The notes under the pieces are model-generated. The model ran no database searches, was not told the origin of the DNA, and saw nothing but the letters and a program-made list of their open reading frames with translations. From Eledone cirrhosa (Eukaryota): a DNA stretch of 64,000 bases. The stretch's first letter is position 1. Every line of letters begins with the position of its first letter. The position numbers and the translations under genes are program-made. Shown here in pieces: positions 1,498 to 26,351 of the stretch. The DNA lies in the NCBI GenBank assembly GCA_964016885.1, contig OZ024740.1, positions 352,656,001 to 352,720,000 of the forward strand, in the 5' to 3' direction.

Positions 1498-2026
1498 CTT
1501 GACTCTTTCTCTTAATTTTGAGTATTTTTTGGACCGCCCACCTTCTCGATAGCAAGGTTGAGAACGTTAATGCTTTGAATCATAAGAATGTTTTACAGAT
1601 TTTGAAGATATGTATGCATGCATAATACATGTCGCTCTCGAGCGCTACTGGTAACATATGACCCAATACAACCTGTTTCAGGGTACGGGCGTCGACAACT
1701 AAATCCTATTTTTGGACATTCCGCGGGATGAAAAACAAAGCCCATCAAAGGGTGGAGGGACGCATGAGAGTCAACGGCCATCAAATTAGTGTGTACATAT
1801 GTATTTATTATGTGTGTGTGCGTGTATGAAACTATATGTTGGTGTATATATATATATATATATATATATATATATATATATATATATATATGTGTGTAAA
1901 GTTATATTTAAAATTGTTGGGTTACAACTAGTAAATATTTATAACTGATATAAAAGCACTCGACAAATATTTGGAGTATATTTACAATATTAAATAAATG
2001 GAAAACTATATTTATAAAACCATATT

Positions 2027-2092
2027 TATTTCATTATATATATTTCGGGGATATCATATTAACAATATGCTATGCCTTCATCAGACAAAATA
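2027..2092 (-). ncRNA. Minimal type I hammerhead ribozyme, element A left arm
   Basis: Reverse complement of 7448-7513. Confidence 0.7.
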
Positions 2093-21070: not shown

Positions 21071-24000
21071 ATATTTAAAAGAATAGAGGTGTAACACAAG
21101 AGTTGTGATATATTAGTAAAAGGAAAAGAAAATGCTGACAAATTTTTCCCAGTGAAAAATAGTTTAATTAGGAATAAGTAAAAATTAGTAATAAGTATTG
21201 GTTAGTATTCAGTTTTAGTTTTAAGTTTTTGCCGGTTGCGCATTTCTAATGCTTTTCAAAAATAATTTTGAGATAAAGAGCCCGTGATGTTTGCTCTAAT
21301 CTGATTAGTTTTGGAAATTCTACCTGTTTTATGTGAAAAAGTGGCTCTAGAGGTATTAAGATTTGGTTGGTTGTTGAATGTCACGTGAATGAGTACTATA
21401 AGTTTCGCGCCAATTCGTGTTGCAAACATTCTTGTAGTCAAAACAATTTTGATTGGTCGGTAGAGGTCACGTGAATGTTTAAAATTGATTTTTCACCAAA
21501 CGTAGGTTTGTCGAAGAGTGTCCTTTTTCGCCTGATTGAGAAGTCACTGAAAAATAAGTCTTTTAAGACAAATATGTGTGTGTGCGTGTGTGTAGTAAAG
21601 AGGTTCATTGTTGTGATAATGGTCAGTAGGGATGTGTGTGTGAATTGCAGTCATGGTGAAAGGTCAACAGTTCAGGTGTTTATTAAGACAAATATGTGTG
21701 TGTGTGTGTGTGTGTGTGTGTGTGTGTGTGTGTGTGTGTGTGTGTGTGTGTGTGTGTGTGTGTGTGTGTGTGTGTGTGTGTGTGTGTGTGTGTGTGTGTG
21801 TGTGTGTGTAGCAGAGTGATTCGTGGTAGAGGGATTCGGTCAGTAGGAATGTTTCTGTACGTGTGTGGGGGATATTTTAACATGTTGAAAGATATTTCCC
21901 AGCTCTTGTCTTATACGGAGAAGTGTGTGTGTGTGTATATGTCTGTTTCTATGTTAGTGTACGCGTGTGTATGTGTGTGTGTATATATGTGTGTGTGTGT
22001 GTATATGTGTGTATGTGTTTGGAGGGGGCAGTATTTTTGTGGTACTGGTAAAAATGGTGTACATTATTCGATGCCTTTCATCCTTACGGGGTCGATAAAT
22101 TAAAGTACCAGTAATACACTGGGATAATTGCTGGCCTTGTGCCAAAAGTAGAAACAATTATTCGATATTTTCAGTAATTTGCAAAAACGATTCTCTCAAA
22201 AGAACATCAAAAACATTAATAATAAAAGGGGTGAAATGATGTATAGTATTGTCATAACACCAAGGTGTGTGTGAGTGTCCAGATTGTACGTACTGCAAAG
22301 AGAATCCATTAGGCCCTGCCGTATGGGAATACTTGTGTACAAATATGTATGTGCCCATCAGTGTGCAATGCATGTGTGCGTATATGTATGTGTGTGTGTC
22401 GACACGTTTATATCTATAGACATCAAAAGGTATGCAAATTTGTGTATATTTGTGTTGCACCATAGAACACGTGTGTTTACGTATGTCATTGTGTTTATAT
22501 GTGGATAGAGATGTATGTAAGATGTATGCTGATGTAGGTATGTATGTTGACGTGTGTATGTTGTGGGTTCGTCTTAGGGATAAGTGTTTAGACGAGGTCC
22601 GTATTTGTTAATAAAGTGAGATTCCTTGCTGATGCGCTGGGTGTGGGTGGCATTATCTTTAAATTTGTAGAGGGGAAAGATTCTAAAGTTGGGATGATTT
22701 TGGGCGGTACATGTGTTCACTCAGTGGTATTTTCCTGTATTCCCGTATTTTAATTTGGGATCTATGGACAGTCATGCGTTGGCGGAGGTTGTTTTTGGTC
22801 TGGCCTATGTATTGTTCTCGACAACCTGAGCAAGTTAATACATATATTAGATTTTCTGATGCGCATGTGAAATTGTGTTTTACTATAAAACGTTGTCCTT
22901 CTTTGAAATAGAATTCCGAACCCTCTATTAGGTTGATGCATATGCCACAGTTGGGTCTATCGCATTTTTTTACTGTAGGTTTCGTTGTTGTGGTTGGCAG
23001 TACTTTGGCATGTGTTAGGATGTTTTTCATTGACTTAGATTGTCTTTTGCTCTTTATGATATCGTGTGTTCGAAGAATTTGGTTCATTCTATGGTCCTTT
23101 TTTAACACAGGGATGTTCTGGAGGATGGTGTCAAAGGCCTCATTGTTGAGGGGGTTGTGTGTGGAGATGTATGGAAGAGCTTTTAGTTTCGGTTGATTTA
23201 CTTTAGGGTGTCTAAGGTCCTGGGTACTGAGTTTTAGGGCACGTTGGATTCCATTGTCAATTAGTGATGCAGGGTAGTCCCTGCCTATGAGTGTGTCCTT
23301 TAGTTCTTGTAGCCGTAAGTAACAGGTGTTTTATTGGAGACTATAGTACAGATTCTCTTGGCTAAGTTGTAGGGAATATTAATTTTAACGTGTCTAGGGT
23401 GGCAAGAGTTGAAAGGAAGATATTGCTTGGAGTCTGTGGGCTTGTTATGAATCTTAATGAGGATGTCGAGGAAGGGGAGTTGTTGATGGCTGTATTCCAT
23501 CGTAAAGTTAATATTCGTGTTGAGCCCATTTATAAGGGTGTGAAATTCTTTAAGTTTCTCGATGTTTTCGTGCCAAAGGATGAAACAGTCATCTAGATAT
23601 CGCTTCCAGTTCTTTTCTATGTGTAAGTGGAGAGTGTTTCCAAATTTGTTTAGTACTTTAGTGTAGAGGGTGATTTCCAGGTATCCCATAACTAGGTTCG
23701 CATAAGGGGGGGGGGGGCTGTTTTCGTTCCCATAGCGGTCCCAGATTTCTGCCTGTAGGATTTGTTATTGAAAACGAAGTAATTGTTCTCCAAGATAAAT
23801 TTGAGTCCCTCTATCACAAATTCTTTTTTGATGCGTTGTGGGAGTTCATTGTGGTAATTATCCAGCCAGAATTGGATAGCTTCTATTCCTAGGTTGTAGG
23901 TTGACTACATCGAACGTCACTAGTAGGGTTTGTTCAGAAAGGGGAATATTAGGGAGGTGATTGAGCATATCTAGGTCGTCACTTATATAGCTTTTGATGT

Positions 24001-26351
24001 GTTTGAGAAAAGGCTTGAGAAGGGTATCAATGAAGTTGCTAAGGCGGTGTGTTTCGCAAGCGGGGCCTGCTATTATAGGTCTTAATTTGAGATCATTGGG
24101 TGAGGGGACATTGATGACTATGTCTGTGGCTTCCTTGCATGCCTTACTTATTAATTCGCTTTTATACTACTTTAGGGATACCGTAGAAAAGGCTGGATTT
24201 ACTTGCGAAGTCTGTGATGAAGCTGAATTCCTTGTTAGTGAGTCCTTCTTTGTATTGGTTGATCAGAGTTTTTAGGTTTCTCATAATTTTCTGTTGATTG
24301 CAGTGTTCAGCCTTTTCGTAGTATCTTTCGTTTTCCAAAGTGGAGAGCGCTAAGTTGATATAGAATTCTGTCTCCATTAGGACTACTGTACTCCCTTTAT
24401 CAGCCTCTTTAATTGTAATAGTTCTGTCGGTTTTTAATCTATTTAATTCTTCCCATTCTTTCTTGTTGAGGTTTGGCTTGTGTTTTTGTCTGTGCAAGTG
24501 TTGGTAAGGGAAGTTTGTGATGTGTTCACAGAATTCGTCCAGGATTTCATTTTTACCTTTTGATGGGGTGTAGTTGCTTCTATTTCTGGCTAATGATTCA
24601 TCCTCATTGTACTGGTCGAATAGTTCTTCACTGAGTCGTAACTTTCTACAGAAGTCTGTGATGTCTTCCTTCATTTCATAGTAGTTAGGACGTAGTGGGG
24701 TCGGTGTGAATTTAAGACCTTTGGAGAGTAAGTTGATAAGGTTGGGTGTTGGTTCTGCACTAGTTAGATTGATAATTTTTATTACTCTCGGTTTCTCCTC
24801 CCTGTCTTGTGTTATTTTGTTTGCCTGTATCTGTGTGCTGTGTCTAAAAAAATGTTGGGGTAGTGGGGTTGTCTGCTGATGTTAAGTGGTCTCCTGTGTT
24901 TGTTATATTCCTTGTTGTTGTAAAATGTGGTTCGGATTCGTGGTTGTGGATTGAATGGGGTGTTCCTGTATTGCGAGTATGGATGTGTGTTTCTATGTGC
25001 CATGTTGGATTATGGTGTTATAGGTGGCCTACGTTGTTGGTTGTATCGTGTGGTGTGGGTTTGTTGTGTATTGTGGAAGCGAGAGTTGAGAAAATGGAAA
25101 TTACCTTGCTGTCCCCTTGTAGCGGGGAAGTTGTTACATCTATCATGGTGGTGGTATCTTTTCCCTATGTTTGACGATGAGGCATCCGCGTAGTAGTTGA
25201 GTGATTTGGTATGGTGTCTCCTTGAAGGGGGAAAGTTGTAAATGTCATTCTGTGGGTGATGATTTCTAGGGTTTTTGTTCCTTCTTATGGAAGCGAGGTT
25301 GGGAAGTTCATCTTCGGTGTGGTGCTTCCTTCTTCTTTTGTTAGTAGCTGAGGGGTGTGCGAAGTTGTTGTGCGGTTCGGTTATGGGTTTTCCTATTTTT
25401 ATGAACGGCTTATTGGAGGTGTAATCCGTTTGAAAAGTCGATTCATAGTTCAGGAACCAAGCGGCACTTTTTTCCCAGCGTTGAAGGGATTTCAGTTCTT
25501 CTTTGTTGCAGTCCCCTTTCCATAATTTAGAGATCTTCTCTGCTTTGGGGCCTTCAGTTTTATTGTTGATTTCCAGGAGGATCTCTTCATCGATGGTTTT
25601 GATTTTTTCCTCATTTGTCAGGGCCCTCAATTTAAGAAGTTCAATTTCTGTCTTCATTTTTTTCCAATGCCATTCTTTCCCTAAGGTGTCTTTGAGGTTC
25701 GGGTTCATTTGGAATGGACTTTATTTGTATTTTACGGGGGAGAGTTAGAGGGGTTGAGTTAAGCCATTTTTCATATATCTCCGCTTTGTTGTGATTTTGT
25801 ATCATCTTCCAGAAGGAGAACTTTCTGTCTCTGAGGGATTTGTTCCATTTTGGGATTGTTCGAATTTTCATTTTGTATGAATCAATCTCACATGGTTCTT
25901 CGTTGGTTTTTCCTGGGTTGGTAGTAGTGAACATATTTTGGATAGTATCGCAAAGGTTTTGAAGTTTATCGCCGATTTTGGAGGGTTTGTATCCGGTGAC
26001 GGTTTCCTCATTTGTGGAGTCAAGTTTGTCGACTAGCACAGATAGGTTGGTGTTAATTTTCTTGAGTTCATGTAGAATCTCTTCATTTGTGTTGATAAGA
26101 GTTGTATCTGTTTTTGTTGGCATTTTCTGTATCTCGTGTGGGGATATGATATTTAAAAGAATAGAGGTGTAACACAAGAGTTGTGATATGTTAGTAAAAG
26201 GAAAAGAAAATGCTGACAAATTTTTCCCAGTGAAAAATAGTTTAATTAGGAATAAGTAAAAATTAGTAATAAGTATTGGTTAGTATTCAGTTTTAGTTTT
26301 AAGTTTTTACCGGTTGCGCATTTCTAATGCTTTTCAAAAATAATTTTGAGA
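21071..26351 (-). mobile_element. Near-full-length Penelope-like element D (Neptune-like layout) with a ~203-bp pseudo-LTR direct repeat
   Basis: Frameshifted ORF ~26219-22590 with IKEADKGS, FYGIPK, GTAMG, WKRYLDD, LPFLDI, CDRPNCGIC and NLIYVLTC...YIGQT. 21071-21273 repeats at 26149-26351. The 3' end abuts (TA)n. Confidence 0.88.
22073..22156 (+). mobile_element. 5'-truncated SINE with a 10-bp TSD inside the element D 3' UTR
   Basis: gcctttcatccttacggggtcgata...gtagaaaca, flanked by attattcgat at 22063-22072 and 22157-22166. Confidence 0.75.

What the first reader, a model, noticed from the sequence alone, without database searches (positions are those of the whole stretch)
1850..26351. (TA)n-anchored array of ribozyme-bearing, foldback Penelope-like elements
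Seen: at least five GIY-YIG retroelements from three divergent RT types (YRDD, YVDD and YLDD types) plus several mini-inserts lie nearly back to back, separated mostly by (TA)n. Three are multi-kb tail-out inverted repeats with a hammerhead near each outer end. Known: Penelope-like elements carry minimal hammerheads and can have inverted pseudo-LTRs. Inference: unrelated families share a microsatellite-targeted mechanism in which both ends of a cut, self-complementary (TA)n site prime reverse transcription and the two cDNAs join head to head. That regenerates TA tracts, which attract further insertions.
Basis: partly seen in the sequence, partly recalled or inferred. Interest (0 to 1): 0.82.

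Follow-up and report, generated by a model that had tools for sequence, protein, structure and literature searches.

The report
Penelope retrotransposon pile-up in TA repeats
This 24-kb stretch is a stack of five broken Penelope-type jumping genes from three lineages sitting in TA repeats, three of them as back-to-back double copies that were likely written from both ends of a DNA cut; the layout is known, but two of the elements likely belong to an undescribed branch whose reverse transcriptase carries an extra 70 amino acids.

Summary
The array is in the sequence: 89% of 1845-26351 is Penelope-like element (PLE) DNA. It holds Hydra-type A and E, Neptune-type D, two related YVDD families (B, C) and a 318-nt hammerhead unit. 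All 12 long (TA)n tracts of the window lie here. A, B and C are head-to-head inverted repeats with hammerhead cores near both ends; only 3 of 6 pass a full descriptor. Inverted copies, one-sided tails, hammerheads and TA bias are published PLE traits, and this scan noted them before on other DNA of this genome. Added here: (1) in C, and probably A, the tail is on the shorter arm, so neither arm is a copy of the other; this favours two-ended priming over fold-back. (2) Reads show B and C ends meeting (TA)n at the same inner site in other copies. (3) The B/C reverse transcriptase has about 70 extra residues between motifs A and B, shared by a large lineage not found in the papers searched. (4) Two TA-centred duplications beside E look like DNA snap-backs, not retro-inserts. 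No long reads were served, so the junctions are not read-confirmed.

The parts
1845..1891 (.). (TA)23 tract at the left end of the array
1892..1976 (-). A: 85-nt extension on the short (left) arm only; read as the PLE tail, element origin not tested by reads
1977..4442 (-). A: short arm, 5'-truncated antisense copy of a Hydra-type PLE
2027..2092 (-). A: minimal hammerhead, left copy (8-bp stem I, palindromic stem III)
4443..4508 (.). A: head-to-head junction made of short re-copied pieces of the long arm's 5' end, with a small palindrome
4509..7555 (+). A: long arm, 5'-truncated Hydra-type ORF (YRDD, CxCx5C linker, GIY-YIG without CCHH; frame 4498-5862) and 3' UTR
7448..7513 (+). A: minimal hammerhead, right copy
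7556..7590 (.). (TA)17 shared by A and F
7591..8134 (.). F: non-coding two-armed unit. Antisense arm 7591-7762, sense arm 7759-8134 with a 318-nt period; the arm ends are 34 nt apart. Retrozyme-like. Right end meets (TG)n
7959..8006 (+). F: type-I hammerhead passing the full descriptor
8560..9810 (+). Degenerate AP-endonuclease LINE fragment (RTE-like by recalled motifs; not a PLE)
   Evidence: family label recalled
9972..10461 (.). TA-centred tail-in duplication: (TA)35 - X (10042-10123) - TA 33 bp - (CA)n - (TA)26 - (TG)n - TA 33 bp - X' (10332-10413) - (TA)24. X and X' identical at 82 of 82 bases with the same cut point
10462..11531 (+). E: 5'-truncated Hydra-type PLE (nuclease only), TA on both sides, no inverted partner, no hammerhead found
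11573..11698 (.). Perfect 126-bp palindrome centred on (TA)18: a tail-only stub (11577-11617, +) facing B's tail
11654..11695 (-). B: 42-nt tail on the long (left) arm only
11696..14322 (-). B: long arm, frameshifted YVDD-type ORF and 3' UTR; degenerate hammerhead core at 11941
14323..14412 (-). B: junction piece, an 86-nt re-copy of 13590-13676 that matches the left arm without substitution and the right arm with 3
14413..16601 (+). B: short arm; degenerate hammerhead core at 16358; ends at the inner site
16602..16671 (.). (TA)35 between the inner ends of B and C (tail to tail)
16672..19926 (-). C: long arm, YVDD-type ORF with a Thr/Asn-rich N-terminal block; ends at the inner site without tail; hammerhead 16817-16859
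19927..20782 (+). C: short arm; hammerhead 20588-20630 with a private stem-I change at 20629
20783..20839 (+). C: 57-nt tail on the short arm only; homologous to B's tail, high depth in other copies
20840..20892 (.). (TA)26
20891..20977 (.). Small element with about 20-bp terminal inverted repeats between TA dinucleotides; likely a DNA-transposon MITE, not a PLE
21075..26351 (-). D: Neptune-type PLE (YLDD, CX4CxxC linker, CCHH nuclease), heavily frameshifted; direct 208-bp pseudo-LTRs 21067-21273 and 26144-26351; 3' end in (TA)9 at 21056-21074

Best explanation
The region is a stack of 5'-truncated Penelope-like retrotransposons of three lineages in (TA)n tracts, and each back-to-back insert was likely made when both 3' ends of a double-strand cut in a TA tract primed reverse transcription of element RNA and the two unfinished cDNAs were joined. 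Steps: (1) the element's GIY-YIG nuclease cuts both strands in (TA)n (inferred; shown in vitro only for the anole element on AT-rich DNA). (2) Because (TA)n is self-complementary, both ends offer the same primer; one starts at an inner site reading ATAT, the other at an outer site 34-85 nt further 3', which leaves the tail on one arm only (ends shown, priming inferred). (3) The two cDNAs stop at different lengths and are joined through microhomology and short template jumps (junction pieces shown, process inferred). (4) Each insertion leaves TA on both sides, which later insertions reuse (inferred). D and E are one-armed outcomes; the duplications beside E would be DNA snap-backs of the cut TA ends. 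The hammerheads are likely passengers in this step.
For: All 4 two-armed inserts (A, B, C, F) have one inner and one outer end. In C the short arm has the 57-nt tail and the long arm 2.4 kb of 5' sequence, so neither is a copy of the other; the tail aligns with B's tail and stays at high depth in other copies. A has the same layout, its tail untested. Inner ends meet (TA)n in other copies: 117 and 115 contigs at 20783 in two runs of one sample; 1270 of 12245 and 1187 of 11932 laid raw reads at 11695 in two other samples. Inner sites share ATAT with the tract in B, C and D (4 nt; 2-5% of nearby positions do as well) and TA in A. Depth over C falls from about 1.4 million at the 3' end to 17 thousand near the 5' end, as 5' truncation predicts. 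C's arms differ by 1.2%, about twice the at least 0.54% (18 near-fixed sites among the 40 rows shown of 476) by which the window differs from the family, as expected for arms that began alike and aged in the genome. PAc protein cuts and extends both strands, from two RNA start sites that bound the tail, and is predicted to be a dimer (PMC11167929).
Against: Only about 23% and 22% of raw reads at B's inner site stop there (1270 of about 5510; 1187 of about 5340), not the half that a strict one-inner-one-outer rule gives; RAD sampling and tandem copies may bias this. B alone fits fold-back equally well (tail on the long arm). A's junction holds a small palindrome, the feature read as self-priming in PMC3846280. 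D and E have no inverted arm; F's right end meets (TG)n. PMC11167929 reports start sites not homologous to the cut DNA, unlike the ATAT match here. A's 2-nt match is at chance level (37% of positions).
Confidence: 0.65

Rival explanations
1. Fold-back or self-priming: one cDNA (or an antisense RNA, as proposed in PMC3846280) folds back at its 3' end and is copied, so the short arm is a copy of the long arm.
For: Small palindrome and re-copied pieces at A's junction; 4-nt match at C's junction. B has its tail on the long arm. Published model for head-to-head repeats.
Against: C's short arm carries an element-derived tail absent from its long arm; A has the same layout. B's junction piece matches the left arm without substitution and the right arm with 3 (0.5 expected, P about 0.015, post hoc), a weak hint of two templates.
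Confidence: 0.17
2. Same two-ended copying, but (TA)n is opened by the host: long TA tracts form cruciforms that structure-selective nucleases cut, and any PLE, LINE or MITE fills the break. The array is a fragile site, not a nuclease target.
For: Three PLE lineages with different nuclease linkers, a LINE end (X) and a MITE share the tracts. Two TA-centred perfect duplications flank E, as hairpin or snap-back ends would give. AT/TA repeats are cut by such nucleases in yeast (PMC12972899, search listing only).
Against: Published Hydra, Naiad and Neptune families show (TA)n bias linked to a Cys linker that A-E all carry. Fixed inner ends with ATAT microhomology point to element-directed priming.
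Confidence: 0.2
3. Each palindrome is two independent insertions of the same family into one TA tract, in opposite orientation, later fused by a deletion.
For: B and C families are very abundant, and repeated insertion into one tract is evident (B and C lie tail to tail).
Against: No TA tract lies between the arms; arms are 98.8-99.7% alike while only 12-25% of laid B-end reads or contigs are 99% alike to the window; the one-inner-one-outer pattern holds in 4 of 4.
Confidence: 0.05
4. The palindromes are assembly or read artefacts at self-complementary (TA)n.
For: No bridging read was shown. The two TA-centred duplications have 100% identical arms.
Against: A, B and C arms differ by substitutions and indels at the rate expected from age, have unequal ends and templated junction pieces. 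A fold-back read cannot add a tail that the other arm lacks. For the two small duplications the risk is higher (my estimate about 0.15).
Confidence: 0.04

Closest known systems
Endonuclease-bearing Penelope-like elements with an inverted 5'-truncated copy and a one-sided 30-40-bp tail (Craig et al. 2021, PMC8557442; Arkhipova et al. 2013, PMC3846280)
   Same: Head-to-head inverted copies, one-sided tail, 5' truncation, pseudo-LTRs (D), hammerhead near the 3' end, (TA)n bias, no readable target duplication.
   Different: Arms here reach 2.2-2.5 kb; tails are 34-85 nt; five elements of three lineages are stacked; the tail can be on the shorter arm, which the published self-priming model does not give.
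Hydra clade (PMC8557442; includes Hydra-1_Obim, (TA)n-targeted)
   Same: A and E: YRDD, CxCx5C linker, no CCHH, CxxC and CxH motifs near the C-terminus, TA flanks, hammerhead in A.
   Different: Both are truncated; A has a 1.7-kb AT-rich 3' UTR; no hammerhead found in E.
Neptune clade
   Same: D: CX4CxxC linker with about 24 residues before the GIY strand, CCHH nuclease, short motif A-B spacing (62 in 53 of 53 scorable relatives), direct pseudo-LTRs.
   Different: No hammerhead found; ORF broken by several frameshifts.
Nematis clade (for B and C)
   Same: C-terminal GIY-YIG with CCHH and a short CX4CxxC linker (6-10 residues), as in the Nematis rows of Fig. S2.
   Different: Motif A-B spacing 131-132 against about 63 in Nematis (counted from Fig. 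S1 text); motifs DKS, RKDHK, GG[AP]IG and WWD differ from the Nematis rows seen.
Naiad/Chlamys and telomerase RT (insertion in fingers)
   Same: A long insertion between motifs A and B; best fold matches of a full-length relative are telomerases (Z 10.6-11.1, rmsd 3.8-6.4, 315-420 aligned).
   Different: Nuclease is C-terminal (79 of 80), hammerheads are present, and the insert was not shown to superpose on the telomerase IFD.
PAc (Poseidon of Anolis carolinensis) in vitro mechanism (Frangieh et al. 2024, PMC11167929)
   Same: Two start sites bounding the tail; both strands cut and extended; AT-rich target.
   Different: No microhomology reported there; here three inner ends share ATAT with the target. 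That paper does not derive head-to-head copies from two-ended priming in the parts read.
Animal non-LTR retrozymes (bioRxiv 10.64898/2026.07.22.740005, abstract only)
   Same: F: non-coding 318-nt tandem unit with a type-I hammerhead.
   Different: F shows the PLE two-arm, one-tail footprint; only 1.2 units on the sense arm.

Membership tests
EN+ Penelope-like elements | Telomerase-related RT | tested here: met
   Model of full-length B/C relative P0011 (pLDDT 89.7): telomerases rank 1-3 by Foldseek and 1-14 by VIA. A and D carry PLE motifs seen in Craig Figs S1, S7.
EN+ Penelope-like elements | GIY-YIG nuclease in the same ORF | tested here: met
   Pfam GIY-YIG in D (2.8e-05, above cut-off) and E (0.0015, below cut-off); none for A or B fragments in Pfam, motifs read directly.
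EN+ Penelope-like elements | Pseudo-LTR or inverted 5'-truncated copy with one-sided tail | tested here: met
   A, B, C inverted with one tail; D direct 208 bp; E neither.
EN+ Penelope-like elements | Hammerhead motif near the 3' end | tested here: inconclusive
   Met for A (2 of 2) and C (1 of 2); core plus 6-bp stem II only in B; none found in D, E. Cleavage not tested.
Hydra clade (A, E) | CxCx5C linker, no CCHH, C-terminal CxxC and CxH | tested here: met
   Read in A; E has CxxC and CxH, its linker is cut (definition). 48 of 82 relatives of A have the linker, 67 of 82 YRDD.
Hydra clade (A, E) | N-terminal RWK and DKT motifs | tested here: inconclusive
   Lost by truncation in A and E; DKT in 33 of 82 relatives, many of them fragments.
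Neptune clade (D) | CX2-5CxxC linker with long spacer, CCHH nuclease, no IFD | tested here: met
   against Fig. S2 text; spacer 23-30 in 30 scorable relatives, A-B spacing 61-63 in 53 of 120 scorable.
Neptune clade (D) | RT phylogeny with named Neptune references | not testable with these tools
   No named reference proteins were available to the tree.
Nematis clade (B, C) | Reduced CX2-5CxxC linker before a CCHH nuclease | tested here: met
   Linker 6-10 residues in 36 of 85 scorable relatives; Fig. S2 text.
Nematis clade (B, C) | Canonical RT without insertion in fingers | tested here: not met
   A-B spacing 131-132 in B and C, 123-136 in 67 of 67 scorable relatives (of 85), 120 or more in 70 of 72 scorable (of 144).
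Nematis clade (B, C) | RT phylogeny with named Nematis references | not testable with these tools
   Tree held only relatives of A, B/C and D.
Naiad/Chlamys (B, C) | N-terminal GIY-YIG nuclease | tested here: not met
   C-terminal in B, C and 79 of 80 scorable relatives.
Telomerase IFD (B, C insert) | Structural equivalence of the insert to the IFD | tested here: inconclusive
   RT-core model (pLDDT 93): 214-226 of 333 residues align with long-IFD telomerases, 199 with Tribolium TERT, 232 with LINE-1 ORF2p.
Non-LTR retrozyme (F) | Non-coding tandem monomer of a few hundred nt with a type-I hammerhead | tested here: met
   318-nt period, hammerhead 7959-8006.
Non-LTR retrozyme (F) | Circular RNA, self-cleavage, many genomic copies | not tested

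The most novel reading that the evidence does not exclude
B and C represent an undescribed, deep and widespread Penelope clade of marine invertebrates: a C-terminal Nematis-type nuclease joined to an RT with a conserved, folded 70-residue insert where telomerase has its IFD. It primes on both (TA)n ends through an AUAU site in its RNA, and element E records the other outcome, in which cut TA ends snap back and duplicate their own flanks.
Probability: 0.4. Interest if true: 0.65.

Novelty: new variant of a known kind. Interest (0 to 1): 0.45.

Why it matters
How PLEs form inverted copies and favour microsatellites is named as an open question in PMC8557442. The tail-on-the-short-arm test given here separates two-ended priming from self-priming and can be counted in any long-read assembly. 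A C-terminal-nuclease PLE lineage with a telomerase-length fingers insert would change the statement that canonical PLEs lack one and would give a soluble-looking, intact ORF family (about 1040-1090 aa relatives) for structural work on the PLE-telomerase link. The array itself is an ordinary, if dense, example.

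Tried and rejected
Whole-genome tally: no genome is held for this window. Rfam: 51 matches at E up to 1, no hammerhead family; all were below gathering score and mostly TA hairpins. Pfam missed A, B and most C fragments and 1 of 6 full relatives entirely. PDB sequence search with the B/C profile gave only weak bacterial RT hits, no telomerase. Hammerhead search with one core mismatch found none in the 3' UTRs of D and E. 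Tail-only stubs like 11577-11617 were not among the 24 loose-end rows shown (401 hidden), so they are not a common product of family B. A joint at 11695 on opposite strands (5 and 29 reads) was seen but its direction cannot be read. Excess transversions between arms (18 transitions, 25 transversions) first suggested sequencing error; rejected because the window's private changes in C are also 9 to 9. Reading X as a PLE tail was rejected in favour of a LINE 3' end (one open frame ending at its stop; family likeness recalled, no database hit). Earlier-notes look-ups by X, by P0001 and by A's end found nothing relevant. The careful tree did not finish; the quick tree was used, and its long branches meet. 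Run X1 (another organism, share 0.23) was laid only as context. Complex prediction was not used: no binding claim is made.

Full report
Observation. A self-comparison of the window finds three long inverted repeats in 1.9-20.9 kb and one direct repeat bounding 21067-26351. Arm differences are 7 of 2459 (A), 26 of 2183 (B) and 10 of 848 (C) aligned bases. Six-frame reading gives RT motif C as YRDD (A), YVDD (B, C) and YLDD (D), and GIY-YIG nucleases in A, B, C, D and E. Every ORF is truncated or frameshifted. All 12 (TA)n tracts of 16 bases or more in the window lie in 1845-21074, and PLE-derived DNA makes up 21712 of 24507 bases. The best named relatives are from Octopus (63% to B; Octopus and Argonauta for D), so the host is likely an octopod (inference).

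Hammerheads. Cores lie near all six inner ends of A, B and C. My type-I descriptor passes both A copies, C-left and a motif in the 318-nt unit F; one weak extra hit lies at 51293. B's two copies and C-right keep the core and a 6-bp stem II but fail stems I/III; the C-right failure is a private change at 20629. Thirty shuffles gave one hit at the stricter setting, which A itself does not reach. None was found in D or E. Minimal hammerheads in PLEs are published (PMC4209133, part 1 of 4 read), and hammerhead mutants did not affect insertion in vitro (PMC11167929).

Classification. A and E match the Hydra definition (PMC8557442 section 11; Fig. S7 text). D matches Neptune by its linker and nuclease (Fig. 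S2 text). B and C are 72% identical in DNA and fit no clade in that paper. Their nuclease linker is Nematis-like, but the distance from motif A to motif B is 131-132 residues, against 61-63 in 53 scorable of 120 relatives of D. By my count from the Fig. S1 text it is about 61 in Drosophila Penelope, 63 in Nematis, 84 in a Naiad and 118 in human TERT. The long spacing holds in 67 of 67 scorable relatives among 85 and 70 of 72 scorable among 144 further representatives, with the nuclease C-terminal in 79 of 80. Eight positions inside the insert are at least 80% conserved and it is modelled with high confidence. A full-length relative matches telomerases best, but the RT core alone does not single out telomerase and the insert was not shown to superpose on the IFD. 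A quick tree of 50 RT cores (22 of 106, 14 of 45, 14 of 17 eligible rows) separates the three groups with support 95-100, without named references and with long branches meeting. The motifs RKDHK, AIGV and PIGL occur 0 times in the paper's supplement. Paper searches found no description of such a lineage, and earlier-notes look-ups found none for it; Repbase could not be searched, so it may sit there under a generic name.

Ends. A, B, C and F each have one arm that stops at an inner site and one that runs 85, 42, 57 and 34 nt further. This is the published one-sided tail (PMC8557442; PMC3846280). In C the tail is on the short arm; it aligns with B's tail and keeps high depth in other copies. 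The long arm has 2.4 kb that the short arm lacks. Neither arm can be a copy of the other, which argues against fold-back of one cDNA unless the long arm later lost its tail exactly at the inner site. A has the same layout, but its extension was not checked in reads. B fits either model. The inner sites of B, C and D share ATAT with the TA tract (2-5% of nearby positions do), A only TA; B and C count as one case.

Other copies. No genome is held and the runs offered were short-read contigs and RAD reads. On C (17521-20839), summed depth falls from about 1.4 million at the 3' end to 17 thousand near the 5' end, and 117 and 115 contigs run from 20783 into (TA)n (depth is no copy number). On B's end, 1270 of 12245 and 1187 of 11932 laid reads from two other samples run from 11695 into (TA)n. 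That is only about 22-23% of the depth at that site, fewer than the half a strict rule predicts. No listed piece bridged C's junction (48349 pieces were hidden), so the junctions remain unconfirmed by reads. Against artefact: C's arms differ by 1.2%, twice the at least 0.54% private difference of this copy from its family (18 near-fixed sites in the 40 rows shown of 476), and the junctions hold templated pieces.

Mechanism. The anole PLE protein cuts and extends both strands, starts at two RNA sites that bound the tail, and is predicted to be a dimer (PMC11167929, parts 1-2 of 4 read). Joining these facts to the ends seen here gives the best model: both ends of a cut TA tract prime, one at each site, and the two cDNAs are joined (0.65). 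The published alternative is self-priming on an antisense template (PMC3846280 Discussion). Whether the element's nuclease or host cleavage of TA cruciforms opens the site, and whether insertion lengthens TA tracts, are untested.

Mini-inserts. F is a retrozyme-like unit with the PLE footprint. 20891-20977 is a likely MITE. The other two are tail-in palindromes centred on TA, one on each side of E. At 9972-10461 the 82-nt piece X is identical in both arms with the same cut point, the TA runs beside it are both 33 bp, and the arms include a (CA)n/(TG)n tract: a duplication of DNA, not two insertions. At 11573-11698 a 42-nt stub mirrors B's tail exactly; such stubs were not among the commonest ends of family B. 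I infer that E entered a break whose two TA ends snapped back and copied their flanks. An independent stub insertion or a local assembly error is not excluded.

Prior notes and novelty. I recorded the tail argument before opening earlier notes. Those notes show the same two-armed reading at many loci of this genome and others; they are unchecked AI notes and add no support. The array is therefore a dense example of known PLE behaviour. What goes beyond the papers read is the short-arm tail in a multi-kb repeat, the B/C lineage and the flank duplications. Also seen: abstract of bioRxiv 10.64898/2026.07.22.740005, passages of PMC13282606 (lists active Penelope families in Octopus vulgaris without clade detail), search listing of PMC12972899. 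Verdict: observation confirmed, interpretation partly supported, new variant of a known kind, interest 0.45.

Noticed in passing
window 39334-45627: LTR retrotransposon on the minus strand with 728-bp LTRs (96.7% alike) and protease, RT, RNase H and integrase pieces; ORFs broken.
   Followed up: partly
window 19400-19926 (-): C's ORF has an in-frame Thr/Asn-rich block of at least 170 residues before the RT; a Ser/Asn-rich start is also in the Octopus relative P0001. It recalls the Asn-rich inserts of Adineta Penelopes (PMC3846280), at another position.
   Followed up: partly
window 16577-16696: B and C, 72% alike overall, keep 22 of their last 23 bases before the inner site, suggesting a conserved RNA signal for the start of reverse transcription.
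   Followed up: partly
window 22072-22162: A 91-bp piece of a dispersed SINE-like family (copies at 35339, 37571, 51341, 52399, 60260, 60406) lies inside D's 3' UTR next to a long (TG)n.
   Followed up: no
window 52165-52375: 211-bp imperfect palindrome (84%) made of two head-to-head pieces of the same SINE-like family between AT-rich microsatellites.
   Followed up: no
window 57836-59652: Two inverted copies (79%) of a tRNA-related repeat 1.3 kb apart; weak Rfam tRNA match at 57813-57869.
   Followed up: no
window 46587-46922 and 60260-60556: Tandem pairs with periods of 168 and 146 bp.
   Followed up: no
window 7463-7493: A's hammerhead has a 31-nt stem II region, a bulged hairpin longer than most Hydra motifs in File S2 of PMC8557442.
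   Followed up: no
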